From contig JAUNQZ010000003.1 of the NCBI GenBank assembly GCA_030535915.1, positions 1 through 46,461 on the forward strand: a stretch of 46,461 bases of DNA, read 5' to 3'. Source of the DNA: a bacterium (GTDB taxonomy: Bacteria; Verrucomicrobiota; Kiritimatiellia; RFP12; DVOR01). Positions 29,277 through 46,461 of this stretch are shown here, one piece after another. How positions within the stretch are numbered: the stretch's first letter is position 1; every line of letters starts with the position of its first letter. The position numbers and the translations under genes were made by a program. The notes under the pieces were generated by a model. It searched no databases, had not been told where the DNA came from, and was given only the letters and a program-made list of their open reading frames with translations.

Positions 29277-29308
29277 TAAAAGAGGCTCAGTTTCCCAAGC
29301 CTCTTTTA
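29277..29308. terminator. Intrinsic terminator between recO and the RND operon (possibly bidirectional)
   Basis: TAAAAGAGGCT-cagtttccca-AGCCTCTTTTA, an 11-bp inverted repeat between convergent genes. Confidence 0.8.
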
Positions 29309-29328
29309 GCATTTAAGCAACTTCTCTT

Positions 29329-30906
29329 TTATTCCGTCTCAATTGGAGCAAGAAGAGGCTCTTCAGAAACATTTTCACCGAAGAAATAAGCGGCGAGCTC
29401 TTCATCTGATTGATCCGCAGTCCAACCACCACAAAGAGCCTTGTAGAGATTCACCTGTGCTTGTGCCATGGCGCCTTCGCTAATTACACGCGATTCGTCA
29501 AGATTGAAGAGACGACGCTGAGCATCAAGCACTTCAAAGAAACGAAGCTTACCTGCAGTATACGCATTATATGCAATCGTATAGGCCATCGCAGCATCAT
29601 TTACACCTTCACGCAAATGGCCAAGGCGTTCTTCTTCATAAGCATAACCCGAAAGTGCCGTACGGATATCTGCCAATGCCGTGAGAACGGTTTCCTCATA
29701 CTGAGCGAGTGCAGCTTTTTGTTGTTCTGTCTTAATATTGATATTGGCATTAATTTGACCACCGTGGAAAATTGGCAAAGAAATACCAGGACCAAAATTA
29801 TAGAAGTGACTATCCCAATCAACAAGATCACCCAAATGGAGCGAATTGATGCCAATCGATCCAGAGATGAAAATGCGAGGATAGCGTTCTGCCTCTGCAG
29901 AGCCAAGAACATCGACCGAAGCCTTTAAGGTACGTTCTGCAGCAACGACATCTGGGCGTTGAGAAATTGCATTTGCAGGGATGCCCTCTTCCATCGGCAA
30001 ACGGATTGGACGCGGGATATTGGTCATTCGCAAAGCAGAGACTTGGGGTGCTCCCTTCTCATCAATTGTTGAGGTTTCGTGCACTGGCAGTTTGGGCGTA
30101 ACAATTTCTGCAGGCAAAGTACCAGGTGTCACCCCACACAAGAGTGCGATTACATTTTCTGTTGCTGCAATTTGAGCTTTAAGGGCAGGAATTGCGGCGG
30201 CCGTGGTCTTGAGGTCATATTCAGCTTGGATGCGTTCAAGATCGGTTGAAATACCACCTGCGCTACGATCCACAAGCAACTTAACATTGGCTTCTTGAAC
30301 GCCGAGCGTATCTTCTGCAATCATCAAACGACCTTGCAGCGTGCGAAGTTCAATATAACGCAATGCAACTTCTGCCGAGAGAGAGACCCATGCGGCCTGA
30401 AGATTCGCTTCTGCAGCTTCGGCTTCCGCTTCCGCTGCATTCACAAGATGTTGCGTACGACCAAAGAAGTCAATTTCCCATGTCGCATCGCCACCAATGC
30501 GGTAATCGGTATATGTATTCTTACCCGAAAGACCATTTTTAGAGGTTCGATTACGCGTGATTCCTCCCGTTGCATCAAGCGAAGGGAAGAGTGCTCCTTG
30601 CTGATACTTCCAAGCTTCACGCGCAGCACGCAAGTTTGCGCGTGAAGCTTCAAGCGTACGATTAGCTGCGAAGGACTTAGCGATAAGGCGCGTAAGTGCT
30701 TCATCATTAAAGCGTTCCCACCACTTATCAATTTGAGGCATCTCAGCCTCAACAACGGTCGGCAAGGCGCCTTTACGGGTATCCTCAGCAATCGTTGCAT
30801 CGGTAAGAATTTCAGCGACAGGGCGTTCCTCATACTTCGGGCCGACCAATGTGCAACCCGCAACGAGAGTGAAAAAGGCAGAGAGTGTTAAGATACGAGG
30901 ACTCAT
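29329..30906 (-). CDS. RND efflux outer-membrane lipoprotein (NodT/OprM family)
   Basis: Lipobox [37 protein letters not shown] and LYKALCGGW motifs. Confidence 0.93.
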
Positions 30907-33900
30907 TGTGTAGCCTCTTCTTTCTTTTCTTTACGATGCGTTGTACCAAAGATGTAATAGGTTCCTTCACGCATCTTTTCAAACATTGCAAACAACGAGG
31001 GAATCATAATAAGACCAGCGGTTGTAGCCACAATCATGCCCCAGTAAACCGTTGTACCGATATGACGACGGCTCGCAGCACCGGCACCTTCTGCATAAAC
31101 CATGGGAAGCACACCCAAAACGAAGGTCAACGCCGTCATCAATACCGCACGGAGACGCTCGCCAGCACCTTCACCTGCAGCATCCACAATCGTAAGGCCT
31201 TGTTCTCGGCGTTGTGCAGCAAATTCAACAATAAGAATTGCATTCTTTGCGGCGAGACCAACAAGAAGTAGCAAACCAAGCTGTGCGTAAATTGAAAGCG
31301 AAAGCCCCGTATAAATGATACCGAGCAATGCACCCACGCAAGCGACCGAAATAGAGGTCATCACAGGGAGTGGCAAGGTCCAGCTTTCATACTGAGCCAC
31401 GAGGAAGAGATAACCAAAGAGGAAGGCCGCCAAAACGATAATCGCGGTTTGCCCCTGGACGGCATTTTCTTGATAGGCCAATCCTGTCCATTCGAAACCG
31501 AAGTCCGTAGAGATGGTATCATCAATCACACTCTTCACTGCAGCCATTGCTTCACCCGAGGAAATATTAGGCTTTGCATTCGCCGTAATATTTGCAGACG
31601 GGAACATGTTATAACGTGTATACGAACGCGGAGCACCCACTGTCTTAAGGCTCACCAAAGCACTAATAGGTACCATCGCTCCCGTATCACTCATCACATA
31701 CAAGTCATAGATGGATTCTTCGTTCAAACGCTGAGCACCCTCTGCCATTACCACCACTTGGTTCACTTGTGTACCATAGTTGATGTCGTTCACATAGGAC
31801 GAGCCCAAATAGTTTTGAAGCGTTCCAAAGAGGCGCGAGACCGGCACTTGATAACTTTCGCACTTCACGCGATCAAGTTCAAGATGCAAGTGAGGTGTAC
31901 CTGCGGTATAAGGCGAAAATGCCATCGCGAGGGTTGGTTCTTGGTTCAAGGCAATAATGAGCGGTAAAAGGTTCCGTTCAATTTCCGCCGGATCCGTTGT
32001 TTTATACGACTGGAAGCGAATATCGAGACCACCAGTTTGACCTAAACCCATAATCGCAGGCGGAACAAAGGAGGTAATGCGTGCTTCATGATAACGCATA
32101 CCGATTTCCTTGATTTTACCCAAGATAGCAGTCGCCGTTTGGTCTTCACGCGGGCGTTCTTCCCATGTTTTGAGAGCGACGACAATCATGCTACAGTTCT
32201 CCGCATCCCCCGAAACCATACCATGACCCACGACTGAAAGGATATCTTTCACACCATCAATTTGACTAATTTCTGCGCTGATTTTCTTTATGTAATCATC
32301 CGTAACATTGCGGTTCGTGCCTTCACGCAAAAGCACATCCACGAAAACCACGCCTTGGTCTTCTTCAGGCAAGAAGGAGGTCGGTGTATGCATCAACGAG
32401 GTATATACCCCCATGCATGTCAACACCAACAATAGGAAAACAATCAATGTACGACGCGCGAAGAACTTTGCAATGGTTGCATACCGCTTACGCAACCAAT
32501 CCAATCCACGATTAAACCATGTAAAGGGGTTGAGCAGGCTCTTTGCTTCCTTCGGCACGCCCATAATTGAGCCACAAATTGCCGGCGAGAGCGTCAATGC
32601 ATTCACCGTAGAGAAGCAAATAGCGGTCGACATTGTCACTGCAAACTGCGAGTAAATACGCCCCGTAATACCTCCCACAAAGCCTACTGGCACAAAGATT
32701 GCGAGCAACACCAATGTCGTTGCAATCACAGCACCCGTCACTTCATGCATCGTAAGCAATGTTGCCGTCTTACGGTCAAGTTTATTCTTACTCATGTGAT
32801 ACTGAACACGCTCCACCACCACGATTGCATCGTCCACCACAGAGCCAATCGCCAGCACCAACGCAAAGAGCGTAAGCGTGTTAATCGTCATACCAAAGAC
32901 TTGCAATGCCGCAAAGGTACACAGCAAGGAGACTGGAATTGCACACACGGGCACCAATGTTGCACGCAAATCTTGCAAGAAGATAAAGCACACGAGCACC
33001 ACGAGAATAAAGGTCTCAATCAATGTTGTGATAATTTCATCAATTGAAACACGCACATATTCCGTAGCATCATACGCAAAGACACACTCGAGATCTTCTG
33101 GGAAACTGGCCTCAAGACGAGCCAACTCCGCACGCATCGCATCCACAGCATCAATTGCATTCGTACCCGGCGTCTGCTGCACCAAGACAGAGACCGCCTC
33201 TGCACCATTGAAAAAGCCCGTGTTGGCATAAGACTGTTCACCAAACTCAACCCGTGCAACATCCTTCAAACGAACCACACCGCCAAAGGCATCTGTACGA
33301 ATCACGATATCGCCAAATTCTTCAGGTGTCTTCAAACGACCATCGGTTGTAATTGAATAGCAATTTTTTATCTTTGGATCAGGGATAGGTGCAGAACCCA
33401 CCGAACCTAATGCCGCTTGAATGTTTTGTGAAGAAATCGCAGCAATTACTTCATCTGCTGTCATCCCTTGAGCTGTCATACGCTCAGGATCAAGCCACAC
33501 ACGCATCGCAAGCTTTGCACCGAAAACCATAACGCCACCCACACCATGAACACGCAAAAGCGGGTCGCGAATGTTGGAGTAGACATAGTTCGAAATGTCC
33601 AATTTTGAATGTGTACCATTTGGCGAACGGAACGACACAAAGCCGAGAATTGACTCTGCACGCGCCGTCACCGAAACACCCTGTTTCGTCACTTCTGCAG
33701 GAAGTTTCGGTTCTGCACGCGCCACTCGGTTTTGCACACGGACCATGTTCATATCACGATCCGAACCCACCGCAAAGGTACATGTCAACGAATATTGACC
33801 ATTATCCGAGCACGAGCTCTCCATATAGAGGAGGTCTTCAACACCATTGATTTCCGATTCAATCGGAATTGCAACAGTATTGGCTAAGTCAACAGCATTT

Positions 33901-34151
33901 GCCCCAGGATAAGTACACGAAACATTCACTGTTGGAGGTGCAATTTCCGGATACTGTTGCACAGGCAAAGTACTAATAGAAAGAACACCCACAATCGACA
34001 TCACGATTGCAATCACAATTGCCAAACGCGGACGATTAATAAAGATACGAGAGAGAATTGAGGCCTTTGGCAAATCAGCGAGTTGTTGTTTCACAATACG
34101 CTGTTCGTTTTCCTCAATCTCCTTAAGGGTCATTGATTTATCTTGTGCCAT
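30903..34151 (-). CDS. RND efflux permease, HAE1 (AcrB/MexB-like)
   Basis: QYPEIAPP, proton-relay motifs [18 protein letters not shown] and [17 protein letters not shown] before ATG 34151. Confidence 0.96.
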
Positions 34152-34232
34152 AAAGCAGTCCTTCACTTCTTAATAAAAGGAGCTCATGCGAAGCCCCAAT
34201 CGATGAATAGGGCCGTCCATGAATAAAATCGC

Positions 34233-35474
34233 TTACTTCTGGGCGGCGGGCTGTTCAGTCTTAATCACGGTAACAGGAATGCCAGGACGGACATTCACAA
34301 CACCTTGCGTAATGACCTCTTCACCTTCTTCTAAACCACTCGCGATGACCACATAGCCATCGACTTCAGCACCCAGCGTAACAGGACGAGCGGCAACAAT
34401 TTGTTCCTTGGTAAGGACATAAACATAAGAACCTTTAGCATTTGAAAGCAATGCTGTGGTAGGAATTGTAAGTGCTTCTTCAGGATTTGCATTCGAGAGA
34501 AGAACCGTCACATACGCATTCGCTACCAAATATTCATTCGGGTTCGCAAAGGTATAACGCACTGGCACAGAAGCCGTATCCTTAGACATTTCGTTACCCA
34601 CAAAGTCAATCGAGCCTGTATGCTCATAAATCGTATTATCCGCGAGCAACAACTCTGCACGAATAAGCGCATCGGCCGATTCTACCGCTTTGTCACTTCC
34701 CTTAATCTTACGCGCATTTTCAAGCAACTGCTTATCCGGGAGAGAGAAAACTACACGCACAGGATCCGTTTGAACAATACGCGCCAACGATGCCATATTT
34801 GGAGAGACATAGTCACCCTTCTTCAACAACGAAGCTCCGATACGACCCGAAATAGGAGCCGTAATACGCGTGTAACCCAAATTAATCTTTGCATTTGTCA
34901 AGTCCGCCTCGCACTGAGCAATCGCCGCACGAGCCTCCAACATGTCTGCATAAGCCTGATCAATTTCAGCTTCAGTCACAGCACGCTTGTCAACTTTTTC
35001 CATACGCGCATAATAACGATCTGCATTCACACTCGCCGCTTTCGCACGATCCAATGCCGCCTGCGCTTGAGCCACACGAGCCTCATAAATTTCAGGATCA
35101 ATTTGGAAAAGCAAATCACCTTCCTTCACCATCGAACCTTCATCAAACGCAACCTCTGCAATCGTACCCGAAATTTGTGCACGCAAATCAGTCGCTTCAA
35201 TCGACTCGACATGACCGATGTAACGCTTTGGAGGATTCAACACACGCTTTGTGACCAGCGCTGTTTCAACTGCCGGCGGGAGTTGCATACGAGCAGCCTT
35301 TTCTGCTGCTGCCTTTTCTGCAGCCACGCGATCAGCATTCTTCTCAATATACATTGCAGAAGCATACCAACCAACCGCCACCGAAGTCACGATACAAATC
35401 AATGTACCAATAACACTCCCAATGACACTTTTACCCGTTGATGCTTTTACAGGTGTTTCATTCTGTTCGTCCAT
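34233..35474 (-). CDS. RND efflux periplasmic adaptor (MFP)
   Basis: N-terminal TM, lipoyl half-motifs (LRAQISG…VKEGDLLFQID; ITAPISGRIG), SGLEEGEEVITQG. GAAAGGA RBS before ATG 35474. Confidence 0.94.
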   Translation of the reverse strand: MDEQNETPVKASTGKSVIGSVIGTLICIVTSVAVGWYASAMYIEKNADRVAAEKAAAEKAARMQLPPAVETALVTKRVLNPPKRYIGHVESIEATDLRAQISGTIAEVAFDEGSMVKEGDLLFQIDPEIYEARVAQAQAALDRAKAASVNADRYYARMEKVDKRAVTEAEIDQAYADMLEARAAIAQCEADLTNAKINLGYTRITAPISGRIGASLLKKGDYVSPNMASLARIVQTDPVRVVFSLPDKQLLENARKIKGSDKAVESADALIRAELLLADNTIYEHTGSIDFVGNEMSKDTASVPVRYTFANPNEYLVANAYVTVLLSNANPEEALTIPTTALLSNAKGSYVYVLTKEQIVAARPVTLGAEVDGYVVIASGLEEGEEVITQGVVNVRPGIPVTVIKTEQPAAQK

Positions 35475-35475
35475 A

Positions 35476-36084
35476 TCATTTCCTTTCAATTTGATTTAAA
35501 ATCATATCCAAACCAGCCTCAATCGTTGACAAAATATCAATCTCTGAGTGATTCAGCCAAACCTCTCGATGCGTCCCCATAAAGGTCACACGCAAGAGTA
35601 CCAAAAGTTGTTCATCCGAGAGTGGTGTCTCAATCAATTCCGCTGCACGCAACCGCTGCAAGCAGTGCAACAAACGCGTCCAAGGGTCACCCGTTAAAAC
35701 GGATCTTAATTTTCCAGCAAGCGTTTTCTTCAACGTCTCACTCCACTCAATGCGACTCACCGCAAAAGTCATAAACTGACGCAATTCGCGATTCTTCAAG
35801 AGCACTTCCGCCCAATCCATAAATGCCGCCTTAAGGTCTGCTACCGTCTGCGCATCATCCAATTTCTTCAACGGATCGTAGGTCTGACACTCCTGCAAAA
35901 TGAGCTCTGCAAGCAAATCTTCTTTACTCTTAAAATGCCAAAAGACCGCCCCTTTCGAGAACTTAATCCGTTTAGCAATATCGGTAATTGTTGTCAACGC
36001 ATACCCTTGCTTTGAAAAACATTTCAAAGCCGCCTTTAAAATTGCTTTACGCGTTGCAAGCGCTTCTTCTTTTGTTCGTCTCAT
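35476..36084 (-). CDS. TetR/AcrR family transcriptional regulator
   Basis: MRRTKEEALATRKAIL and HTH DIAKRIKFSKGAVFWHFKSKEDL. First gene of the RND operon. Confidence 0.93.
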   Translation of the reverse strand: MRRTKEEALATRKAILKAALKCFSKQGYALTTITDIAKRIKFSKGAVFWHFKSKEDLLAELILQECQTYDPLKKLDDAQTVADLKAAFMDWAEVLLKNRELRQFMTFAVSRIEWSETLKKTLAGKLRSVLTGDPWTRLLHCLQRLRAAELIETPLSDEQLLVLLRVTFMGTHREVWLNHSEIDILSTIEAGLDMILNQIERK

Positions 36085-36118
36085 ACCATATTATACAGTA
36101 GTAATAAAAAACACCATT

Positions 36119-36147: not shown

Positions 36148-36207
36148 GTAAAAAAATTAAAAAAATTACACCTGCATATCACAGTCAACAACGCAATTAA
36201 CACACCA

Positions 36208-36345
36208 TGAGACAGCTCTAAAAAGCGTCTCAAAAACATGCCTCTAAAAACCTTTAAAATCAAGGCTTATGGTTTTGACATTCAAAACCACTGATATTGA
36301 ACGTCAAAGTCAATGGTTTTGCGCTTCAATTTCAGCGGTTTTGAT
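36208..36345. repeat. Intergenic element with phased 22-bp palindromic units (copy B, inverted relative to copy A)
   Basis: Units aaTCAAggcttatggttTTGac / atTCAAaaccactgataTTGaa / cgTCAAagtcaatggttTTGcg / ctTCAAtttcagcggttTTGat at 36258-36345. Confidence 0.75.
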
Positions 36346-36357
36346 TTTAAGGAAAAA

Positions 36358-37638: not shown

Positions 37639-37646
37639 AGATGTAT

Positions 37647-38585: not shown

Positions 38586-38587
38586 GT

Positions 38588-39313
38588 TTAACGCCCTCCT
38601 TTACCATCCTCACCAAAGAGGTAAATTTCAATCCCTTTCGGCTTGCGACGCTTAAACCAAGAGTAACCCTTTAAAACCCACAAACGCCGCAATTTAAAAT
38701 GCTTACGAAGCAATTCTTTACGCTCTTCTGTAAGTTCCTCTCGCACACGATACCAATGTTTATAAACACCTGAAATATCGGCCATCTTAAGAATTCGCTT
38801 GATAAAGGGAAAAATCCACCAACGCAATGTCACACCAGCCTGAAAATCTAAAAGACCCGGACGACCATCTTCCAAAATCAAAACATTTTTAGAATTACGA
38901 TTGTCCAAATGCGTCACCTTACGACGATGCATTTCATGAACCATTGCCTCGAGTTCTTCAAAATAAGCCTCTGGAAGCGGAGGAATGGTAGGATCCAATT
39001 GACAGCGATCATTATAGGCGCTCAAGGTTTCCCCGGGGAGCAATTCCATCGCGAAGGAATAAGCATCAATGCGTTGTAATTTTTGTGGAATACCATGCAT
39101 GCCATCAAGACGTTTCATCAAGGCATATTCATGAGCAATCATCCAACGTCCCCAGGTCCAACGAATCCACCACGGACTCTTACGGAAATCTTTAACAACG
39201 CGTGGACCATCAGGCGTTTCAATACGATAAACACGCGCATTACCAGCACGCCCTTTGCTCAAGCAAACGACATCCTTCTCTTCCCAATCTTTTCGTGTTA
39301 TCACATATGCCAT
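38588..39313 (-). CDS. RIO1/Kdo-like atypical kinase
   Basis: VVKDF (Lys), HLDNRNSKN (catalytic loop), LLDFQ (metal-binding Asp). Confidence 0.8.
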   Translation of the reverse strand: MAYVITRKDWEEKDVVCLSKGRAGNARVYRIETPDGPRVVKDFRKSPWWIRWTWGRWMIAHEYALMKRLDGMHGIPQKLQRIDAYSFAMELLPGETLSAYNDRCQLDPTIPPLPEAYFEELEAMVHEMHRRKVTHLDNRNSKNVLILEDGRPGLLDFQAGVTLRWWIFPFIKRILKMADISGVYKHWYRVREELTEERKELLRKHFKLRRLWVLKGYSWFKRRKPKGIEIYLFGEDGKGGR

Positions 39314-39340
39314 AACGCACCTCGTAAAAATGTTTCATCT

Positions 39341-39370
39341 ATTTTATCACAAGAGAAGAAGAAAAATCAA
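39341..39370 (-). promoter_or_regulatory. Sigma-70 promoter for the kinase-corA-DUF2851 unit
   Basis: On the - strand TTGATT-N18-TAAAAT with a TG extension, then a GAGGTG RBS. Confidence 0.5.
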
Positions 39371-39382
39371 ACAAAAACACCG

Positions 39383-40294
39383 TTAGACACGCTCCTTCAA
39401 ACGCTCAATAAGTTGTAGAAATAACGCCTCCGGGGTAGAGGCCCCTGAGGTTACTCCAATGCGTTTGATCTGTGAAATGTCTAATCCATCGACGCCTTCT
39501 GGTTTATCAATTAAAAAGGCTTGGCAACCTTCCTTTTGAGCGACTTCCACGAGACGACGAGAATTGGAAGAATTGGGCGAACCCAAAACAAGGACGCAAT
39601 CAACATTTCGGGCGAGTTGAGATACCGCGCGTTGCCGTTCTCGCGTAGCATAGCAAATGTCTTTGAAATTTGGATGAATCAATGTATACCCAGCAGATTC
39701 AAGCGCGGTTTGACATTCCACAAACATTTCATCACTAATCGTCGTTTGGCTAAGAAGTACAAGCATGCGTTCATTTGGCCAACGCGTTTTAAGGATTTCA
39801 ACATCTGCTTTGGATTCAATCACTTCAATTTGTTCAGGGGCTTCACCAATAACCCCAACGACCTCATCATGCCCTTTGTGTCCAACAAGTGCAATATGAC
39901 AATGGCGTGAAGCAAAATCACGCGCCTCTCCATGTACCTTTGCAACAAAAGGACAGGTCGCATCAACAATATCCAACTTACGGGCACGTGCTTCTTCCCA
40001 AATCTGTGGAGAAACCCCATGTGCCGAAAACAGCACACGCGCCCCCTCTGGAATCGTTGCAATCGCATCCACAAAAATCGCACCTCGTGACTTCATCTCT
40101 GCAACCACATGTTGATTATGTACAATTTCATGAAAACACCAAAGCGTCTCATTCGGATATTCATCAAGAATGCGATTGGCGATTTTCAACGCACGATCAA
40201 CACCCGTACACATGCCATGGGGTTGAGCAATTTCAATTCGTAGCCCACCCTTAGAATATAAGCTTTCGGTCGTCATAGTTTCCACGATGAGCAC
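39383..40294 (-). CDS. ispH: 4-hydroxy-3-methylbut-2-enyl diphosphate reductase
   Basis: Three Fe-S cysteines (GMCTGV, DATCPFV, DICYAT), plus IVHN, SAHG, GHDEV and SSNS. Start may be ATG 40276. Confidence 0.96.
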   Translation of the reverse strand: MLIVETMTTESLYSKGGLRIEIAQPHGMCTGVDRALKIANRILDEYPNETLWCFHEIVHNQHVVAEMKSRGAIFVDAIATIPEGARVLFSAHGVSPQIWEEARARKLDIVDATCPFVAKVHGEARDFASRHCHIALVGHKGHDEVVGVIGEAPEQIEVIESKADVEILKTRWPNERMLVLLSQTTISDEMFVECQTALESAGYTLIHPNFKDICYATRERQRAVSQLARNVDCVLVLGSPNSSNSRRLVEVAQKEGCQAFLIDKPEGVDGLDISQIKRIGVTSGASTPEALFLQLIERLKERV

Positions 40295-40296
40295 CT

Positions 40297-41988
40297 TTAG
40301 GGATTATGTCCTAAAACTTCCGAGAGTTGTTCTAAGAGGAGTGGCAAAAGTTGTTTCTTACGCGACATAATCCCCTTGCAGAGGTAAAGCCCCGAACGCG
40401 TATGCTTGGGGAAAGGAATCTTCTCCAAGAAACGCGTATCCCCAACCACAAGGAGCAAGGAGTTCAACGCTGTAATATCCGTCACCATTAGTGCCGCAAA
40501 GAAGAGCTTCTCATGTTTGCACTTTTCTTCGAGTGCATGTCGCAAGGCCGGCAAACGAGGTTCAAGTTCTGCAAACGAACTACTTTCAAGCTGAGCCACA
40601 GAGAAGGTCACCCCCGCCTCATGATAGAGTTTTGCATCAAGATTAAGGAGTTTTTCTTCAGAGAGATCAATAATACGAGCCCCATGTGCAAAGATATCAC
40701 TTGCAAGTTCCGAAACCTCAAGATTGAGTAAGCCGGCGAGATATTCTGCCATTGCACGATCAACATCGGTTGTTGTCGGCGATTGCAATGCAAGTGTATC
40801 GGTGATAATTGCCGACAACAACAACCCTGCAATTGCAGGCGTAAGAATAGCCTTTTGCTCCTGATAAAGGCAAGCCACAATCGTTGAGGTTGAACCAACG
40901 ACACGATTAATAAAGTTAATCGGTTCTCGCGTAGGGAAGTTCCCAAGTTTATGATGGTCAATAATCTCAATGATGTGGAATTGGTCTAAACCTTCAGCAC
41001 CGAGCGAGAGTTCATTATGGTCCACCATAATAATATCCACATTCGGTTGCTTATAAAGGTCGCGTTCATTAATCACTCCAACCACTTTACCCTCACGATT
41101 CACAACGGGTAATGAACGCGTTGGAGAGGTTTGAACCATCGGCAAAATGGTTCGTACAGCATCATTGGTCGAAATCGGTTTTACAGCATTCTTGGCACTG
41201 GTCATTGCACTTACTGGCATAGAATAAAGTGCCAAATAAATCGTGCTTGCGATATCATAAGGCGAGCTCAACACCGAAATATGGGCCTCCTTCGCCAATG
41301 CATAAAGATCCTTGGAAAGCGACTGACCATTTGTCAAAACAATGGCGCGCACCTTATATTGCAAGCAGAGTCGCACAATCGACTCACGATTCTCAACAAT
41401 CGCAATCGCATTGGTCGGCATCTCAATTTTGAGCACTTCCTCAAAGGTCTCCTTCGTAGAGCCCGCCACAAGAATACGACTCTTAATCACCGTTTCCGCA
41501 TTAAACGAAAGCAACACTTGTGCACGCAATGTATGTGCAAGCAAGTTAATACTCGCAGGAATAATAACCTTACGGTGAGGATCCGTTTTATGAACAATAT
41601 TTTCCGTAAAGGTATGGTGCGAAAGATACGCTTGGTAATGCCCCTCAATATCAACCACCGGAATTGCAGGCACACGATTCTTATCCATAATTAGAAGCGC
41701 ATCCCACAAGGCACTCTTGGCTTGCACCGTCACCGGTGTTTTCTCAAGAAAATGCTCTACTTTCGGATACATATCAGGAATAAAAATCGGCGCCTCCACA
41801 CCAAAGCGACGAAGGATATATTCCGTTTGAGGGGTCAACTTACCCGCACGCGCAGGGAGACAATTCGTATACCCTTGTTGACGCTTCAACTCCGCATAAG
41901 CAATTGCAGAAACAATCGAGTCCGTGTCAGGATTACGATGACCAATAACAATGATTTTTTTCTTTAAAGGATCTTCGGGTTGCATCAT
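40297..41988 (-). CDS. ppaC: Mn-dependent inorganic pyrophosphatase, family II, with CBS-DRTGG insert
   Basis: GHRNPDTDS, MVDHNE, IIDHH and GIMSRKKQ motifs, with a CBS pair flanking a DRTGG-like domain. Confidence 0.93.
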   Translation of the reverse strand: MMQPEDPLKKKIIVIGHRNPDTDSIVSAIAYAELKRQQGYTNCLPARAGKLTPQTEYILRRFGVEAPIFIPDMYPKVEHFLEKTPVTVQAKSALWDALLIMDKNRVPAIPVVDIEGHYQAYLSHHTFTENIVHKTDPHRKVIIPASINLLAHTLRAQVLLSFNAETVIKSRILVAGSTKETFEEVLKIEMPTNAIAIVENRESIVRLCLQYKVRAIVLTNGQSLSKDLYALAKEAHISVLSSPYDIASTIYLALYSMPVSAMTSAKNAVKPISTNDAVRTILPMVQTSPTRSLPVVNREGKVVGVINERDLYKQPNVDIIMVDHNELSLGAEGLDQFHIIEIIDHHKLGNFPTREPINFINRVVGSTSTIVACLYQEQKAILTPAIAGLLLSAIITDTLALQSPTTTDVDRAMAEYLAGLLNLEVSELASDIFAHGARIIDLSEEKLLNLDAKLYHEAGVTFSVAQLESSSFAELEPRLPALRHALEEKCKHEKLFFAALMVTDITALNSLLLVVGDTRFLEKIPFPKHTRSGLYLCKGIMSRKKQLLPLLLEQLSEVLGHNP

Positions 41989-42000
41989 ACAAGTCCTCCT

Positions 42001-43014
42001 TTAAGTACGACGATAAGCTTCAATCGGTTTATGTTCTGGAGCAGGTGGTGTAACAAAGCACATGCCCTTTTCGACCGCATTACCACACATCCACGCAGCC
42101 ACATCCATAGGCTTACCACCTTCTGGCTGAACTTTTATCAAACGCAAAGCACCATCCACCGTTCTTACAACAACCGCTGTCTTTGAGGCTTGAAGCACCG
42201 TCCCAGGCGCAAGCTTCGTCTCCGCAACAGAAACAGGATACGCCTCCGCCGCAAGAATTTTCAACATCTTCCCCGCAGATTTATGATTCTCGGGCATAAA
42301 TGTGTAACACGAGGGCCACGGTGTATAAGCACGAATTTTACGCAAAGAAAACTCCGTTGCATCACTCCAATGAAGCAATCCATCACTCTTCTTAATTTTG
42401 TAAGCCGTTGTGACAAGCGCGGGGTCTTGGCGAACCGGCTTCACCTTGAAATACGCCCATAATGGCAAGACCTTTGCCAAAAGATCCGCCCCCATATCCG
42501 CAAGGCGATCATGGAGACTCTCAAGCGTATCTTCAGGCGTAATGGCAGTTTCAGAAGTCATTAAGACAGGCCCCGAATCCATCCCTTCATCCATCAACAT
42601 CGCAGAGGCACCTGTAACCTTATCTCCCGCCAGTAATGCCGCATGAATTGGCGACGCACCTCGATAACGAGGTAATAACGAAAGATGAATGTTAATACAT
42701 CCCATCGTGGGAATATCTAACAAGCGCTTCGATAAAAATTGTCCATAAGCAACCACCACAATAACATCCGGCAACCAAGCCGCAATGCGTGCAAGACTCT
42801 CAGGTGCATTCACACGCTCCGGGGTCAAACAAGGAATGCCCGCCTGATCCACAAATGCTTTACATGCACACGGCGTCAATTTTTTACTGCGTCCTGCGGG
42901 TTTATCGGGTTGCGTTACACAACCAACGACTTGAATCGTATCGGTCTCACGAACAAGGCGCTGAAGCATCGTTGCAGAGAGGTCGGCGGACCCCATAAAA
43001 ACAACTCGTATCAT
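42001..43014 (-). CDS. fmt: Methionyl-tRNA formyltransferase
   Basis: VFMGS, VTQPDKPAGR, VAYGQ, NIHLSLLPRYRGASPI, GMDSGP and QPEGGKPM motifs. Confidence 0.97.
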   Translation of the reverse strand: MIRVVFMGSADLSATMLQRLVRETDTIQVVGCVTQPDKPAGRSKKLTPCACKAFVDQAGIPCLTPERVNAPESLARIAAWLPDVIVVVAYGQFLSKRLLDIPTMGCINIHLSLLPRYRGASPIHAALLAGDKVTGASAMLMDEGMDSGPVLMTSETAITPEDTLESLHDRLADMGADLLAKVLPLWAYFKVKPVRQDPALVTTAYKIKKSDGLLHWSDATEFSLRKIRAYTPWPSCYTFMPENHKSAGKMLKILAAEAYPVSVAETKLAPGTVLQASKTAVVVRTVDGALRLIKVQPEGGKPMDVAAWMCGNAVEKGMCFVTPPAPEHKPIEAYRRT

Positions 43015-46000
43015 AGTCTCGTTCCTTTCTCTTGTAGCCGTTGGTAGCGGTCTTCAATCTCTTGACAAAGCGTCTTCTCATCCTCCGAACAAGCGTCCAT
43101 AAGCAGAGGCGAAATCTCCCTTGCCAAACATAAATGATGATAGGCGAGCGATGGATCTTCATACACATGATAATAGCAAGCCTTCATCCAATGGAGAGCC
43201 GCCGAAGTACTAAAACGCTCTTCGCCTTCTGCAAGAAGGCTTTTAGCGAGCGGACGATGCTGATAGTCCAAGGCGACTTTTACAATCTCTAAAAGTTCTC
43301 TCTCCGTAAAGTGTTTGTACATCTCTGCAGGCATCTTTGCAGCGATCTCATAAAGCAATTCCGGAGTCTCCAATCGCATCACCAAACGAATTACCTCCAT
43401 AAGGTGTGTCGGCGGGATGAATCGCTCCGCAAAACCCCATGCCACTTCGCGTGCCTCATCCAAGGCATGCAATTGCAAGCAAGCTTCAATATACAAACAG
43501 CGTTCGTTGATGGAAATTGTACCGCGATTAAGCGAAAGTTGCAAGCATTTACAACATTCAAGCGCTTTTTTCTCTTCTTGGATTGTAGCCAACAATTGCA
43601 CCAAGGCTTTATTTTCAGGGTCATTTTCTTCTGCCGCACGCAACATCCGCAAGGCGTTTTCATAATTTGAAAGTGGCATCTTCGTCCCCTCAAGCGCAAG
43701 CGCTCGCAAGAGAAAAACTTCTACATAATCAATTGTAGAATCAATAGGATACGCAGACATTGCAGTGATTAAAGAACAGTACGACCAATGAATCTCTCCT
43801 TGCTGTCGATAGAGGGAAGCAAGGGCGCGTTGCAATGCCGTAAACTGCTTTCGCGCAGGCGCATCACGGAGATAAGCGGAATGTTGACTGAGATAGCGTG
43901 AATACCAATCCCAAAAGTCAACATCGCGCATTCCAACAGCACGCGTCTGCGGCGTCTGAGTCGCAACTTTAAGTGCCAATCCTGAGGGCTCCAATTGACG
44001 ATAAAGCGCTGGATAAGGTGCCCGCGATTCTAAATAAAAAGGAACCGATGCATTCTTTTCGAGAACCCAATGTAACAACAAGGCCTCTAACTTCTCCTGA
44101 TCCGTTGTCGCCTCCGCCGTCAACCACGCATACTCCTTAAAATGAAGGCGATGTTGCAAACCTTCCACCGTCTCCTCCGAAGGCAACTGAATTCCCGCAT
44201 AAGCAGGCCACCGCTCACGAGCCGCTTGTGCAAGTTCATCCGCCCAATGTGCATGCGCAAGCACCCGCACATCCGGTCGCACATCAATGACTTGCGTCAT
44301 GTAATACGGCACAAAAGAAGAGGTCAACATCACCGCATCGCGTTCAATAGGCGGCGGCCAAAAGGGATCCGGCAGAGGTTCATCATCTTCCGTCAAAAAA
44401 CGCTCCAAACGCGAAGCCCCCTCCAACGCAACCGCCCCCCATTGCCAAGCAAAAAAGTGTCCTCGAGCCTCCGGAGCCAGACGCATTGTTCCTTGTCCAG
44501 CCCCCACATAAGTACGAAAAACACCCCACCCTAAAAAGAGCACCAACCCACTCACCAAGCAAAGATACCCCCATCCCCACGGAGGCCCCTCTAAGCGTCG
44601 TAACAACTGCACCGAAGGTATCGCAACAAGACCCCCTATCCCAAAAATAAACAATGCCTCTAATCGATGTTGCAAAAGATTCGGCTGCAACAGCGGCTCC
44701 TCTGGAAGCAACAAAAAGACAAGACAACAACAAAGCACCCACACCATCAAAAAGACAAGCCACCGCACGCGATACCGACCCACACCATAGAGTCCCATGA
44801 CCACAAATCCAACACTCCCCCAAAAGAGCACCCCTAACCCATCCCCAAAACACAACTGACCAAACATTTCAAAAATGGCGACAAAAGTTGCCCGTGTGGG
44901 CAATCCCAAGCCTACGCCATCAGCAAACAAACGATGAAATCCAACCCACGAAAAAGGCGCCCCCCACTGTTCAGGCGACACCCCTAAACAACTCACCAAC
45001 GGCACATAAAGATAAAAGAGACAACCCGCCAAAAGCAAAAGAATACACATCATCGCCCCACGTCCACACAACAACCACCGACGCCCCATCACCAATAAAC
45101 ACCCCACCCAAACCAACGGCCACCAAAACCACCACAACCGTGGATGCGTCAACCCAACCATAAACCCATGCTGATATAAAAATAATAACCCCACCTGTAC
45201 AAATGTCACCGCAAGCGCATAACGCCGAGAACGATGAAACCGAAGACACATCCCCCACAACACCACAAGCGCAAACAAATGAATCCCCCATGTCGACACA
45301 AAAGAATACAACGTCCCCTTAAATGACGGCGAAAGAACATACGACACCGTTGTAATCGCATGTAGCAAAACACCAAAAAAAACAACCCCCGACAATAAAA
45401 CACCCAACCACCAATGCCCCGTTACCCTACGCGAAATAACCGCAGAACGATGCAACCGAGGCCACAAAAAAAGACTCCCCACACCAACAACAAACAGCCC
45501 CCAAAAAGCAAAATAATACCCCCTCGGCAAAAACGCCAACGGTAACACCCCATGCATCGCACATGCCATCGGCCGCGCCAAAGCAACCCCCTCCACCAAA
45601 TGCCCCTCATACGCAGAAGGCAACGCCCCAATAAGCAACAAATGAGCCGTCAAACCAAGAGGAATTAAAAACGACAACAACGCCTTCGCCAAAGGACGAT
45701 GCGCCACAAACACCATCCCCCACAACGGCACCCCAAACCATAAAAACGACATCCCATTCGTTAACCCAATCCCAAACAAAAATAATAAGACACCCAAAAC
45801 ACTCGCCGTTGGACACCTCAAAAACCGATAACTCCAAAAAAGAATCCCCACAAATAGCAACATCTCCCACGCATCAACACTAGCCCGTACCGCACAAGAC
45901 CACATCAATGGAGAAAACGCAAACAACAACGCCACACAACAACTCACAAAACAAACATACGACGGCAACCATCCCTCATCCCCCTCACGCTGCCGCACAA

Positions 46001-46352
46001 ACAAACAATCCATCAACACCAACCAAGCCAACCGAGCAAAAAGCCCAACCGCCCAAGCACCACAAAAAGCAGAAAACACCCCCAACGACCATGCAGGATT
46101 CACCTCACCCCCCCACGACACCCATCCAAAAAGCATCGTAAAAAGATTCCCAATAATCGTCCAAACAGGATAACCCGGAGGCGCCGAAATCCCCCATGTA
46201 CTCGCAGCTACAACCGAATGATTCGAAAATCCAAACCCAACCCCATTCCCCAAAGTCACCACATACACCAACAATGCCACCACACTACTCACCCAAAAAG
46301 CGAGCCCTTCAAAACGACATCCACCCGTTGATATACCCTCTCTCATTACCAT
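43011..46352 (-). CDS. DUF2723/TMEM260-like multi-TM GT-C-type membrane protein with C-terminal TPR-like region (divergent)
   Basis: PPGYPVWT motif after TM1, FAFSPLMWS.A, YLYVPL and W.GF segments, many TMs, helical C-terminus. Start uncertain (TTG 46370, ATG 46352 or ATG 46346). Confidence 0.8.
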   Translation of the reverse strand: MVMREGISTGGCRFEGLAFWVSSVVALLVYVVTLGNGVGFGFSNHSVVAASTWGISAPPGYPVWTIIGNLFTMLFGWVSWGGEVNPAWSLGVFSAFCGAWAVGLFARLAWLVLMDCLFVRQREGDEGWLPSYVCFVSCCVALLFAFSPLMWSCAVRASVDAWEMLLFVGILFWSYRFLRCPTASVLGVLLFLFGIGLTNGMSFLWFGVPLWGMVFVAHRPLAKALLSFLIPLGLTAHLLLIGALPSAYEGHLVEGVALARPMACAMHGVLPLAFLPRGYYFAFWGLFVVGVGSLFLWPRLHRSAVISRRVTGHWWLGVLLSGVVFFGVLLHAITTVSYVLSPSFKGTLYSFVSTWGIHLFALVVLWGMCLRFHRSRRYALAVTFVQVGLLFLYQHGFMVGLTHPRLWWFWWPLVWVGCLLVMGRRWLLCGRGAMMCILLLLAGCLFYLYVPLVSCLGVSPEQWGAPFSWVGFHRLFADGVGLGLPTRATFVAIFEMFGQLCFGDGLGVLFWGSVGFVVMGLYGVGRYRVRWLVFLMVWVLCCCLVFLLLPEEPLLQPNLLQHRLEALFIFGIGGLVAIPSVQLLRRLEGPPWGWGYLCLVSGLVLFLGWGVFRTYVGAGQGTMRLAPEARGHFFAWQWGAVALEGASRLERFLTEDDEPLPDPFWPPPIERDAVMLTSSFVPYYMTQVIDVRPDVRVLAHAHWADELAQAARERWPAYAGIQLPSEETVEGLQHRLHFKEYAWLTAEATTDQEKLEALLLHWVLEKNASVPFYLESRAPYPALYRQLEPSGLALKVATQTPQTRAVGMRDVDFWDWYSRYLSQHSAYLRDAPARKQFTALQRALASLYRQQGEIHWSYCSLITAMSAYPIDSTIDYVEVFLLRALALEGTKMPLSNYENALRMLRAAEENDPENKALVQLLATIQEEKKALECCKCLQLSLNRGTISINERCLYIEACLQLHALDEAREVAWGFAERFIPPTHLMEVIRLVMRLETPELLYEIAAKMPAEMYKHFTERELLEIVKVALDYQHRPLAKSLLAEGEERFSTSAALHWMKACYYHVYEDPSLAYHHLCLAREISPLLMDACSEDEKTLCQEIEDRYQRLQEKGTRL

Positions 46353-46461
46353 AAGTATATCACAAATCAACCCACATTACAAGCCACCCTTATCCCGGAT
46401 TTTTCCGTGAATCTTGCACAATGTAATTGCGCAGGTAAGAAAAGAAGAAAATCTAAAAGGA

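What the first reader, a model, noticed from the sequence alone, without database searches (positions are those of the whole stretch)
44450..46350. Extreme local strand skew: about 1.9 kb of coding strand almost depleted of A and C
Seen: the + strand becomes overwhelmingly A+C. Hand counts give 52/60 in 45061-45120 and 51/60 in 45901-45960. Controls give 31/60 in the 3' part of the same gene (43201-43260) and 40/60 in a TM-coding stretch of the RND permease (32941-33000). The coding strand is thus about 85% G+T in the sampled lines, with many G-runs, and the protein drifts to G/V/L/F/W/C, yet the 3.3-kb frame stays open. Known: C-to-T and A-to-G are the deamination signature of persistently single-stranded DNA. 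Inference: localised strand-specific hypermutation (R-loop or G-quadruplex, a nearby origin or strand-displacement site, or a targeted deaminase) acting on a gene under relaxed selection. Hydrophobic codon bias explains only part of it.
Basis: partly seen in the sequence, partly recalled or inferred. Interest (0 to 1): 0.7.

Follow-up and report, generated by a model that had tools for sequence, protein, structure and literature searches.

The report
Cytosine-purged start of a long operon
The first 2.3 kb of a conserved membrane-protein gene has had almost every avoidable C removed from its message strand, the extreme case of a genome-wide gradient along operons that most likely protects long transcripts from premature termination rather than reflecting hypermutation.

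Summary
In 44450-46350 the + strand is 75.7% A+C, the most extreme of 6090 1-kb windows in the 1.67-Mb genome.

It is the 5' membrane domain of a conserved TMEM260-like gene (43011-46370, minus strand). About 55% of the excess comes from an amino-acid composition shared by all orthologues. About 45% comes from synonymous sites, where C falls to 3-5% and G doubles while T does not rise.

That is not a plain C>T/A>G deamination signature. Selection is not relaxed, there is no G4 motif, and oriC lies on other contigs.

The synonymous G>C bias is genome-wide and polar along transcription units. It scales with the amount of co-directional coding sequence downstream and not with distance from the start. 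It is present in some relatives and reversed in an E. coli sample.

Best reading (about 0.45): selection keeps nascent RNA free of the C>G tracts where Rho loads. This extends a principle published in 2026. Transcription-associated mutation is the main rival. I file it as a new variant of a known kind.

The parts
44040..46407 (-). Skewed tract: promoter, start and first ~2.3 kb of the gene. The message strand has G>C in every 80-nt window.
   Evidence: 0 of 59 windows (80 nt, step 40) starting 44040-46360 have C>=G on the minus strand, against 12 of 51 in 42000-44039. Island called at 44236-46461. GC3 skew per 100 codons.96 .96 1.00 1.00 .78 .73 .68 .83 .38 .28 .40.
43011..46370 (-). TMEM260-like / TPR-like membrane protein gene (1119-aa frame). 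The likely true start is the ATG at 46346, the M9 of the listed frame.
   Evidence: ORF. Pfam PF11028, 44.3 bits against a cut-off of 24.2, residues 53-223. Orthologues start at MRE.... The listed TTG at 46370 lies between the -35 and -10 hexamers.
44451..46370 (-). N-terminal polytopic membrane domain (residues 1-640), 57.7% G/V/F/W/C/L.
   Evidence: Composition. G+T expected from the amino acids alone is 0.649, against a genome mean of 0.518 and a highest whole-gene value of 0.599.
43011..44450 (-). C-terminal soluble domain (helical-repeat-like, residues 641-1119) with ordinary composition.
   Evidence: GT1/2/3 are .572/.413/.683. A weak Fis1_TPR_C hit, E 0.23, below cut-off. Distant relatives P0007 and P0008 carry TPR Pfams.
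46354..46382 (-). Promoter-like site: TTGTAA, 17 nt, TATACT, with TG before the -10. The ATG lies 7 nt after the -10, so the mRNA is probably leaderless or nearly so (inference).
   Evidence: Consensus scan; sequence.
46393..46407 (.). 15-bp target-site duplication (CGGAAAAATCCGGGA on the minus strand), also present at the right end of contig C159.
   Evidence: end sequences.
46408..46461 (-). Terminal ~54 bp of a ~175-190-bp MITE-like repeat (R1) that ends the contig. It is identical at 8 contig ends.
36358..46370 (-). Co-directional unit 1: TMEM260-like, fmt, DHH-CBS phosphoesterase and four further genes. The G>C bias decays along it.
   Evidence: GC skew at 4-fold sites gene by gene.66 .34 .30 .10 -.03 -.09 -.01. 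ORFs.
29277..36084 (-). Co-directional unit 2 (RND efflux operon) showing a second sawtooth, ending in an intrinsic terminator at 29308-29277.
   Evidence: GC skew at 4-fold sites.45 .43 .26 -.19. Terminator with a 14-bp stem and T tail.

Best explanation
The tract is the promoter-proximal 2.3 kb of a conserved, selected gene for a TMEM260-like membrane protein. This is the first gene of a roughly 10-kb run of seven co-directional genes. Its extreme G+T content has two layers.

Layer 1 (shown) is about 55% of the excess. It is the amino-acid composition of a polytopic membrane domain rich in Gly, Val, Leu, Phe, Trp and Cys. Orthologues down to 37% identity share it.

Layer 2 (shown) is about 45% of the excess and is synonymous. 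C-ending codons are almost abolished (TTT 55 to TTC 0, TAT 17 to TAC 0, TGT 20 to TGC 1, GGC 3%) and G-ending codons are doubled or tripled. Third-position GC skew reaches 0.96-1.00 over the first 400 codons.

Layer 2 is the extreme of a genome-wide rule (shown). On the message strand, synonymous G-over-C falls steadily from the 5' to the 3' end of transcription units. Its height at any point is proportional to how much co-directional coding sequence still lies downstream, not to the distance from the start.

Inferred mechanism: selection purges C>G tracts, which are the loading sites of termination factor Rho, from nascent RNA. It does so most strongly where a premature stop would cost the most downstream genes. 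This gene would be especially exposed because it is long, membrane-inserted, probably leaderless, and first in its unit. A leading-strand-type replication skew in this part of the contig adds a further offset (shown: neighbouring minus-strand genes have GT3 0.6-0.7 and plus-strand genes 0.39-0.50).
For: Size and decomposition.

Conservation and purifying selection.

Not unique: 23 genes have a 100-codon window with GT3 > 0.85. Whole-gene synonymous residuals for dnaA (.119), a T2SS-F gene (.118) and an AAA_5 gene (.113) exceed this gene's .083.

The axis is G against C. In island genes 4-fold G is .49-.53 and C .05-.09, with T unchanged. Along 287 unit proxies GC skew falls from +.02 to -.24 while TA skew (.26 to .25) and GC4 (.48 to .49) stay flat. 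First-minus-last skew exceeds +.3 in 101 units and is below -.3 in 13.

Dependence on downstream length: OLS on 4295 windows gives beta(distance from start) = -.002 and beta(distance to end) = +.154 per 1000 codons, se .008. The 5' skew rises with unit length (-.05, +.04, +.18, +.36; Spearman rho .29-.43), whereas the 3' skew is constant.

Two sawteeth lie inside the window itself.

At the target locus the bias is one-sided. It starts at the promoter, while the sequence on the other side of the MITE (C159 right end) is unskewed at .51-.55. The eight R1 downstream ends average .73 and the seven upstream-side ends .54.

The transcript has no C>=G 80-nt window for 2.3 kb (0 of 59).

rho is present, with a 612-aa frame.

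Published basis: Rho needs C>G-skewed, YC-rich RNA (PMC6144790, passages read). Rho avoidance shapes coding-strand composition and 'excess C' marks Rho targets (PMC13323073, abstract, section 8 and passages read).

Controls: in an E. coli K-12 sample of 4 x 50 kb the gradient has the opposite sign (-.144) and no extreme windows. Relatives range from weak (G014 +.065, G030 +.081) to strong (G022 +.153, G024 +.229).
Against: No experiment links Rho to this sequence, and the mechanism rests on correlation.

The regression predicts a skew of only about +.4 for this unit's length, yet 0.96-1.0 is observed. Something gene-specific adds to it.

T-richness, which favoured Rho termination in B. subtilis, is not avoided here; the message strand is 39% T.

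The strand is not purine-rich overall (48%), unlike the published purine-bias pattern.

Some real genes have very C-rich, G-poor message strands (DprA, ComF-like, TilS and others; 4-fold C .65, G .04). Under this model they would be strong Rho substrates, and that is unexplained.

The transcription units are crude proxies (longest-ORF calls, gap rules), windows are not independent, and leading and lagging strands cannot be assigned in a 173-contig assembly.

Unit length could stand in for expression level.

rho is present in 40 of 41 relatives whether their gradient is weak or strong, so there is no natural contrast.
Confidence: 0.45

Rival explanations
1. Transcription-associated mutational asymmetry. 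The non-template strand is exposed as single-stranded DNA, in transcription bubbles or R-loops, most often near promoters. It accumulates strand-specific damage, so the message strand drifts to G+T. The drift is strongest at the 5' ends of units that are transcribed often or translated poorly.
For: The bias begins at the promoter and runs in the direction of transcription, including the untranslated bases between the MITE and the start. It decays 5' to 3' within genes: 81 genes have a first-minus-last-100-codon GT3 difference > .15 and 10 have < -.15, of 696. At 2-fold sites T/(T+C) is .98. RNase HI (PF00075) was not found in G000 or in 24 genus relatives, which would be permissive for R-loops. 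In contigs laid from other runs, the window carries the keto base more often than its relatives: X1 482 against 357 places, X3 359 against 282, summed over 30000-46461 only. Background from the review PMC10030826 (passages).
Against: At 4-fold sites T does not rise and the gain is all G, with higher GC4. This is not what C>T plus A>G predicts. Skew depends on distance to the unit's end, not distance from its start. Highly expressed genes are unremarkable: EF-Tu GT3 .41, rpoB .58. RNase HI is missing across the clade, including the weak-gradient genome G014, and two RNase HII-family genes are present.
Confidence: 0.2
2. Origin-like local DNA synthesis or repair. Recurrent initiation, restart or break repair at repeat-bearing intergenic sites exposes, on each side, the strand that runs 5'>3' away from the site. 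This would give small bidirectional skew domains like those around a replication origin.
For: Sharp jumps in + strand G+T are mostly upward (47 against 23 at >= .12; 5 against 0 at >= .20). At contig ends the inward strand is G+T-rich at 21 of 172 ends and poor at 1. Jumps are commoner at gaps holding dispersed repeats (10 of 36 against 16 of 260, Fisher p 3e-4). Some flanking genes are real yet have C-rich message strands (12 of 15 have Pfam families). The true oriC (DnaA-box clusters at C148:356-687 and C104:21086-21178) shows the same local peak.
Against: A message-strand gradient from G-rich 5' ends to C-rich 3' ends gives upward jumps at every junction type without any site-specific process. 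At the target locus, and at R1 sites in general, the skew is one-sided. The R1 copies are identical and so recent, too young to have caused it. No DnaA-box clusters occur at other jump sites and no Rfam family was found there. This model predicts no dependence on downstream unit length.
Confidence: 0.07
3. Other selection on the mRNA: U-rich membrane-protein messages (targeting or slow translation for co-translational insertion), avoidance of RNA structure, or a long ramp of rare codons.
For: G+T at position 2 and at position 3 are weakly correlated across 1007 genes (r = .14). 21% of the most hydrophobic class have GT3 > .7, against 2-6% of soluble classes. G-ending codons that are rare genome-wide (GGG 15%, CGG 6%) dominate here (60%, 38%).
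Against: Membrane proteins are not enriched among genes with a strong 5' G>C bias (8 of 53 against 114 of 1007; OR 1.4, p .37). Soluble proteins such as DnaA, FolD, UvrD and a DEAD helicase show it equally. The RND permease in the same window has GT3 .637. The bias continues past the membrane domain and into downstream genes.
Confidence: 0.1
4. One reading: a localised hypermutation event (targeted deaminase, G-quadruplex or R-loop hot spot, or nearby origin) acting on a gene under relaxed selection.
For: It is the most extreme window in the genome. C is nearly eliminated at position 3. The amino-acid-level G+T index of the N-domain is somewhat higher in this subclade (.62-.72) than in 11 other species of the genus (.56-.63).
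Against: N- and C-domains diverge equally. The full-length frame and motifs are conserved in 6 close and 22+ genus-level relatives. There is no G4 motif. It is not local: at least 23 genes show it and the gradient is genome-wide. The base spectrum is wrong for deamination.
Confidence: 0.03
5. An assembly, consensus or binning artefact at a contig end.
For: The tract abuts a contig end, and skewed tracts are enriched at contig ends.
Against: Positions 1 and 2 and the protein sequence are conserved, while the bias sits at synonymous sites. This means selection has filtered it. Independent contigs from other runs and studies cover it. The contig ends are explained by repeats of at least 53 bp located in promoter-upstream regions.
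Confidence: 0.02

Closest known systems
Rho-avoidance nucleotide bias of coding strands (Dierksheide, Taggart, Johnson and Li, Nat Microbiol 2026, PMC13323073; abstract, section 8 and passages read)
   Same: The message strand is depleted of what Rho binds (excess C over G) and the antisense strand is enriched in it. The bias follows transcription direction and underlies codon usage. rho is present in the genome.
   Different: Here the axis is G against C only, not purine against pyrimidine; the tract is 48% purine and 39% T. The bias is graded along transcription units in proportion to downstream length. The word 'gradient' does not occur in that paper's main text. The bias reaches complete exclusion of C at third positions over 200 codons. 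The organism is a Kiritimatiellota/PVC gut MAG, not a Bacillota. No termination assay exists for it.
C>G 'bubble' / rut-site concept for Rho-dependent terminators (Nadiras et al., NAR 2018, PMC6144790; passages read)
   Same: The concept predicts that a transcript with no C>G window of about 78 nt cannot load Rho. The first 2.3 kb of this gene has none (0 of 59 80-nt windows).
   Different: The concept was built to find terminators in E. coli. Here it is used in reverse, to explain their absence, and it is untested for this Rho, which has a long N-terminal extension (612-aa frame).
Replication-associated G+T excess of the leading strand (review PMC10030826, passages read; Borrelia cited there as the strongest case)
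   Same: Same sign of skew. In the window a strand-wide baseline is visible: minus-strand genes have GT3 .6-.7 and plus-strand genes .39-.50.
   Different: Replication skew is step-like along a replichore and independent of position in an operon. The tract exceeds its neighbours by about .25 in GT3 and decays within 3 kb.
Bidirectional strand asymmetries anchored at human CpG-island promoters (Genome Biol Evol 2009, PMC2817419; search listing and start of abstract only)
   Same: Skew peaks anchored at promoter regions, with upward jumps and decay over kilobases.
   Different: That is a eukaryotic pattern attributed to mutation during transcription and replication. Here the pattern scales with downstream operon length, and at the target locus it is one-sided.
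Pfam PF11028 TMEM260-like protein O-mannosyltransferase family (the gene product)
   Same: The HMM match is above the curated cut-off. Architecture is an N-terminal membrane domain plus a C-terminal helical-repeat region, as in distant relatives P0007 and P0008.
   Different: There is no match to any solved structure by sequence and no NCBIfam model. Activity and substrate are unknown.

Membership tests
Pfam PF11028 TMEM260-like | Profile match above the curated gathering score | tested here: met
   44.3 bits against 24.2, E 2.2e-11, residues 53-223, profile 6-172 of 179. Five of 8 database relatives carry the same Pfam.
Pfam PF11028 TMEM260-like | C-terminal TPR repeats, as in many family members | tested here: inconclusive
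   Only Fis1_TPR_C at E 0.23, 12.1 bits against 25.3. TPR Pfams appear in distant relatives P0007 and P0008. No structure was predicted.
Rho-avoidance coding-strand bias | rho gene present in the genome | tested here: met
   PF07497 at 94.2 bits, C11:1409-1627, 612-aa open frame. Found in 40 of 41 relatives searched.
Rho-avoidance coding-strand bias | Message strand lacks C>G tracts and the antisense strand is C-rich | tested here: met
   0 of 59 80-nt windows with C>=G on the transcript across 44040-46439. 4-fold C .048, G .506.
Rho-avoidance coding-strand bias | Bias follows transcription, not replication strand | tested here: inconclusive
   The gradient is polar along units on both strands (206 of 287 positive) and depends on distance to the unit's end. 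Leading and lagging strands cannot be assigned in a 173-contig assembly, and a strand-wide baseline also exists.
Rho-avoidance coding-strand bias | Purine richness of the message strand (as published for Bacillota) | tested here: not met
   The message strand of 44450-46350 is A 11% + G 37% = 48% purine. Only at 4-fold sites are purines raised (.63 against .47).
Rho-avoidance coding-strand bias | Rho-dependent premature termination when the bias is removed | not testable with these tools
   This needs a reporter assay with the cognate Rho.
ssDNA deamination skew (C>T and A>G) | Loss of C matched by gain of T, and loss of A matched by gain of G, at freely evolving sites | tested here: not met
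   4-fold sites against other minus-strand genes of the window: C .199 to .048, T .335 to .322, A .214 to .123, G .253 to .506. GC4 .45 to .55. Same pattern in 13 other island genes.
Replication-associated strand skew | Roughly constant amplitude along a replichore, switching at oriC/ter | tested here: not met
   Amplitude decays from GT3 .95 to about .65 within 3 kb. oriC markers are on C148 and C104.
G-quadruplex-prone tract | Canonical G3+N1-7 x4 motifs above chance | tested here: not met
   0 motifs in 1920 nt (shuffles 0.59 +/- 0.74). GGG+ runs 69 against 59 +/- 5.
Hypermutation under relaxed selection | Faster protein divergence in the affected domain, or loss of frame or motifs | tested here: not met
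   N-domain against C-domain identity.975/.969.695/.695.589/.622.583/.531.442/.566.381/.365. Invariant motifs are kept.

The most novel reading that the evidence does not exclude
In this Kiritimatiellota lineage (Candidatus Spyradenecus and relatives), synonymous G-over-C on the message strand may act as a quantitative termination-proofing code. Its strength at each point would be tuned to how many codons still have to be transcribed, reaching total exclusion of third-position C at the head of long units. This would imply that RNA polymerase commonly runs ahead of ribosomes in this phylum. It would also mean that operon architecture and transcription-unit boundaries can be read from base composition alone, and that very C-rich genes such as dprA, comF and tilS are deliberately Rho-attenuated.
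Probability: 0.35. Interest if true: 0.7.

Novelty: new variant of a known kind. Interest (0 to 1): 0.55.

Why it matters
If the reading holds, it extends the newly published idea that Rho avoidance shapes gene composition in two ways. It reaches a different phylum and a different base axis (G against C rather than purine against pyrimidine). It also adds a quantitative rule: the bias is proportional to the transcript length still to be made.

That rule can be tested. It would give a sequence-only way to map transcription units in uncultured bacteria, and it bears on expressing recoded or foreign genes in such hosts.

There is also a cautionary point. A striking local skew that looks like deaminase hypermutation can instead be conserved amino-acid composition combined with selection at silent sites.

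Tried and rejected
(1) Contig-end artefact. Rejected because the bias is at silent sites only, other runs cover the tract, and contig ends are explained by repeats.

(2) Origin-like sites at REP-like repeats. I pursued this at length. The association is real: 10 of 36 against 16 of 260 gaps. It is better explained by repeats sitting at unit boundaries. No Rfam family was found at 10 jump or repeat loci, and no DnaA boxes outside oriC.

(3) Coupling to expression level. EF-Tu has GT3 .41 and rpoB .58, and ribosomal-protein contig C91 is about .5. My ORF caller performs poorly on C91.

(4) Membrane anchoring (transertion) or membrane-protein specificity. No enrichment: 8 of 53 against 114 of 1007, p .37.

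(5) G-quadruplexes. None found.

(6) Missing RNase HI as the cause. It was not found in 39 of 41 genomes of the order, including weak-gradient G014, so it does not discriminate. UDG, topoisomerase I and RNase HII-family genes are present.

(7) The N>C domain step in GT3 seen in high-GC relatives. In mid-GC G014 the step nearly vanishes (about .63 against .59), so I attribute it to amino-acid-specific codon preference (Leu CTG, Val GTG). That attribution is an inference; I did not tabulate the relatives' codon usage. It differs from the gradual decay in the window.

(8) DNA of the close relatives, for local substitution polarity. The metagenome scan found only 33%-identical genes. Read laying printed 40 of 1720 variant places, so only totals over 30000-46461 could be used.

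(9) A rho-less natural contrast. None exists among the 41 genomes searched.

(10) The search of earlier findings (nothing), PDB sequence search and NCBIfam (nothing).

(11) Literature. Searches listed no paper whose title or abstract start describes an operon-length-graded GC-skew gradient in bacteria, and none on skew in Kiritimatiellota (0 papers). Supplements were closed and most listed papers were not opened.

Full report
**1. The observation**

The window is a whole contig (C161) of a 1.67-Mb, 173-contig assembly.

In 44450-46350 the + strand has A 741, C 698, G 250 and T 212, so A+C = 0.757. The whole window is 0.546. The genome-wide mean over 6090 1-kb windows is 0.504 (sd 0.051). The five most extreme windows in the genome all lie here, and the next locus reaches 0.706.

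The tract is the 5' part of a 3360-nt open frame on the minus strand (43011-46370). The protein matches Pfam TMEM260-like (PF11028) above its cut-off. It has no NCBIfam model and no solved relative by sequence.

Record titles of related genomes name Candidatus Spyradenecus, Kiritimatiellaeota and Lentisphaeraceae gut MAGs.

**2. The tract is real and under selection**

G+T at codon positions 1, 2 and 3 is .697.706 and .866 in residues 1-640. In the C-terminal domain it is .572.413 and .683.

Six full-length relatives from other assemblies (97, 70, 60, 56, 50 and 37% identity) align end to end and keep many invariant Trp, Gly, Pro and Arg positions.

N-domain identity equals C-domain identity.975/.969.695/.695.589/.622. 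The fraction of G/V/F/W/C/L in the N-domain is .577 here against .50-.62 in the relatives. The amino-acid composition is therefore an old, shared property of this membrane domain and not drift under relaxed selection.

An amino-acid-level G+T index is a little higher in this subclade (.62-.72) than in 11 other species of the GTDB genus (.56-.63). Some long-term pressure on the protein is therefore possible.

Contigs from other public runs cover the tract at roughly 89-95% identity. One of those runs may be the sample of origin.

**3. Decomposition of the excess**

With genome-average codon usage, the N-domain's amino acids alone predict G+T = .649. The genome mean for this index is .518 and the highest whole-gene value is .599. 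The observed value is .756. About 55% of the excess is therefore amino-acid composition and about 45% is synonymous choice.

Codon counts show the synonymous layer:
- TTT 55 to TTC 0, TAT 17 to TAC 0, TGT 20 to TGC 1, and ATC 0 of 18 Ile codons.
- GGG 60% (genome 15%), GGC 3% (genome 26%).
- TTG 54% (genome 24%), CGG 38% (genome 6%).

At 4-fold sites the comparison is with the other minus-strand genes of the window. C falls from .199 to .048 and A from .214 to .123. T is unchanged (.335 to .322) and G doubles (.253 to .506). GC4 rises from .45 to .55.

This is not what extra C>T plus A>G would give. The signature is G replacing C.

There is no canonical G4 motif (shuffles 0.59), and GGG runs are barely above shuffles (69 against 59 +/- 5).

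**4. Not a local event**

A crude ORF call gives 1240 ORFs with GT3 mean .556 and sd .099. Other genes reach .83-.89. They include dnaA, a T2SS-F gene, atpB, folD, focA, an FtsX permease, and UvrD and DEAD helicases. Sixteen of the 20 tested have Pfam families.

Twenty-three genes hold a 100-codon window with GT3 > .85.

Genes with GT3 of .20-.28 are also real: 12 of 15 have families, among them TilS, DprA, a ComF-like protein and NAD kinase. Their 4-fold sites are C .65 and G .04.

**5. A false trail worth recording**

Skewed tracts cluster at contig ends, with the inward strand G+T-rich. This holds at 21 of 172 ends, against 1 end with the opposite bias.

Internal jumps in + strand G+T are mostly upward (47 against 23; 5 against 0 for the largest). 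They are commoner at intergenic gaps holding dispersed repeats (10 of 36 against 16 of 260). The true oriC shows the same local peak; its DnaA-box clusters are at C148:356-687, next to dnaA, and at C104:21086-21178.

This looked like many small origin-like domains. The picture changed once the contig-end repeat was resolved.

The last 54 bp of the window belong to a ~175-190-bp element with terminal inverted repeats and 14-15-bp target duplications. It is identical at 8 contig ends. In most copies it sits about 25 nt upstream of a -35 hexamer.

The duplication CGGAAAAATCCGGGA links the window's right end to the right end of contig C159.

Across these insertions the skew is one-sided. The eight promoter-downstream ends average an inward GT3 of .73.70.70 and .65 over successive 500-bp bins. 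The seven upstream-side ends average .54.56.54 and .50. C159's end is .51-.55.

Contigs simply break at repeats that sit in front of operons.

**6. The rule behind it**

I treated runs of co-oriented ORFs (gaps < 60 bp, at least 600 codons; 287 units) as transcription-unit proxies.

Message-strand GC skew at 4-fold sites falls monotonically from +.02 in the first sixth to -.24 in the last. TA skew (.26 to .25) and GC4 (.48 to .49) stay flat. First-minus-last skew exceeds +.3 in 101 units and is below -.3 in 13.

A gradient from G-rich heads to C-rich tails gives an upward jump on the + strand at every type of junction: divergent, tandem and convergent. This accounts for without any site-specific process.

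A regression on 4295 windows of 100 codons gives these coefficients:

| Term | Coefficient per 1000 codons | se |
|---|---|---|
| Distance from unit start | -.002 | .008 |
| Distance to unit end | +.154 | .008 |

The windows are not independent.

The 5' skew rises with unit length, at -.05, +.04, +.18 and +.36 for the classes 200-500, 500-1000, 1000-2000 and >= 2000 codons (Spearman rho .29-.43). The 3' skew stays at -.06 to -.12.

The window itself holds two sawteeth:

| Unit | Span (minus strand) | GC skew at 4-fold sites, gene by gene |
|---|---|---|
| 1 | 46370 to 36358 | .66 .34 .30 .10 -.03 -.09 -.01 |
| 2 (RND efflux) | 36084 to 29329 | .45 .43 .26 -.19 |

Unit 2 ends in a strong intrinsic terminator at 29308-29277.

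**7. Controls**

Stretches of other genomes give these first-minus-last values:

| Genome | Stretch analysed | First-minus-last GC skew | Units positive |
|---|---|---|---|
| G024 (same genus) | 49 kb | +.229 | 9 of 10 |
| G022 (same genus) | 184 kb | +.153 | 24 of 28 |
| G014 (same genus) | 261 kb | +.065 | 29 of 50 |
| G030 (another family) | 400 kb | +.081 | 45 of 81 |
| E. coli K-12 | 4 x 50 kb | -.144 | 12 of 38 |

In the E. coli sample no 100-codon window has GC3 skew beyond +/- .7. In G000, 180 and 115 of 7551 windows do. In G014 the orthologue has GT3 .61, and only 1 of 1281 windows exceeds .8, against 131 of 7554 in G000.

**8. Mechanism**

Dependence on the amount of downstream coding sequence is what one expects if a premature stop costs everything downstream. 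Rho loads on C-rich, G-poor, YC-rich RNA ('C>G bubbles'; PMC6144790, passages).

A 2026 study showed that avoidance of Rho shapes coding-strand composition in Bacillota, and that 'excess C over G' marks Rho-terminated fragments (PMC13323073; abstract, section 8 and passages).

Here rho is present. The transcript has no 80-nt window with C>=G for its first 2.3 kb (0 of 59). Such windows reappear further down, in 12 of 51 windows across 42000-44039.

The gene is first in its unit, long and membrane-inserted. The -10 hexamer ends 7 nt before the conserved ATG at 46346, so it is probably leaderless (inference). All of these could leave its RNA exposed.

I therefore read the tract as conserved membrane-domain composition plus extreme 'Rho-proofing' plus a leading-strand-type baseline. 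The Rho link is inferred and has not been shown.

**9. What does not fit**

- The regression predicts a skew of about +.4 for this unit, yet .96-1.0 is observed.
- T-richness, which favoured Rho termination in B. subtilis, is not avoided here.
- The tract is not purine-rich overall.
- The very C-rich genes are unexplained.
- Unit length may be a proxy for expression.
- rho is present in 40 of 41 relatives regardless of gradient strength.

The main rival is transcription-associated mutation. It is favoured by the promoter-anchored onset, by the excess of keto bases in the window relative to laid contigs (482 against 357 and 359 against 282 places over 30000-46461), and by the clade-wide lack of RNase HI. 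It is disfavoured by the base spectrum, the distance-to-end dependence, and unremarkable EF-Tu and rpoB.

**10. Limits**

- ORFs are longest-frame calls, and some antisense frames are spurious.
- Units are proxies.
- Leading and lagging strands cannot be assigned.
- Relatives and E. coli were sampled, not analysed whole.
- No DNA of the closest relatives was available, so substitution polarity could not be localised to the tract.
- Supplements of the cited papers were closed.

**11. Verdict**

I classify the finding as a new variant of a known kind, with moderate to good interest.

Noticed in passing
window 46408-46461; also ends of C31, C75, C22, C40, C4, C111, C117, and internal copies C109:1-140, C75:~5440-5614, C106:~5060-5151, C145:~2860-2930: A ~175-190-bp MITE-like element. 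It has imperfect terminal inverted repeats (TGTAAATTGCAAGC... / ...CTGCGCAATTACATTGTGCAAGATTCA) and 14-15-bp target-site duplications. Eight copies are identical over the 53-55 bp held at contig ends. In about 9 of 11 copies, by eye, the element lies ~25 nt upstream of a -35 hexamer. The duplications pair C159R with C161R, C146R with C75L, and C162R with C117R.
   Followed up: partly
G000 C148:356-687 and C104:21086-21178: These are the only two DnaA-box clusters in the genome (5 and 4 boxes). The first lies just upstream of dnaA (C148:807-2213). Both sit at contig ends whose inward strand is G+T-rich, so they are probably the two sides of oriC, split by repeats.
   Followed up: partly
G000 intergenic regions, e.g. 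C148:1-320, C119:11545-12100, C155:2071-2410, C64:11121-11346, C28:10500-10903: Mosaic, REP/BIME-like dispersed repeats built from short modules (GCGGCTCGCTTCGCTCG, tandem CACGGAAAA 9-mers, GAATGAGGAATGAGGAATTG, a ~90-nt 'TAGCGAAAGC...GCATTGAGCC' unit). There is no Rfam match. They are enriched at contig ends and at skew jumps.
   Followed up: partly
G000 C133:37831-39111, C155:2410-3639, C68:5958-6881 and others (loci L015-L029): Real genes with extremely C-rich, G-poor message strands (4-fold C .65, G .04). They include TilS, DprA, a ComF-like protein, an iron-dependent repressor and a KpsF-like protein. Two are competence genes. No model I tested accounts for them.
   Followed up: partly
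G000 and 40 relatives (whole genomes): RNase HI (PF00075) was found in only 2 of 41 genomes of the order and in none of the 25 of the genus. Two RNase HII-family genes are present in G000.
   Followed up: partly
G000 C11:1409-1627 (L120): The rho gene sits in a 612-aa open frame. Frames of 460-706 aa are usual in the relatives. From recall, this is much longer than the ~420-aa E. coli protein, implying a large N-terminal insertion or extension.
   Followed up: no
window 46344-46382: The TTG start listed for the ORF (46370) lies between the -35 and -10 hexamers. The conserved ATG at 46346 is 7 nt after the -10, so the mRNA is probably leaderless.
   Followed up: partly
window 24537-24807 (minus strand): Three tandem tRNA genes, two of them with identical scores, lie in the gap between gene blocks.
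   Followed up: no
E. coli K-12 NC_000913.3, four 50-kb samples (L116-L119): In this small sample, GC skew at 4-fold sites rises rather than falls along co-directional gene runs (first-minus-last -.144; 10 units below -.3 against 1 above +.3). I do not know whether this is known or general.
   Followed up: no
GTDB genus of G000 (loci L004-L014): Species placed in one genus span GC 0.51-0.72 at this locus and share only 31-35% identity for this protein. The closest relatives (97-50%) exist only in run-level assemblies.
   Followed up: no
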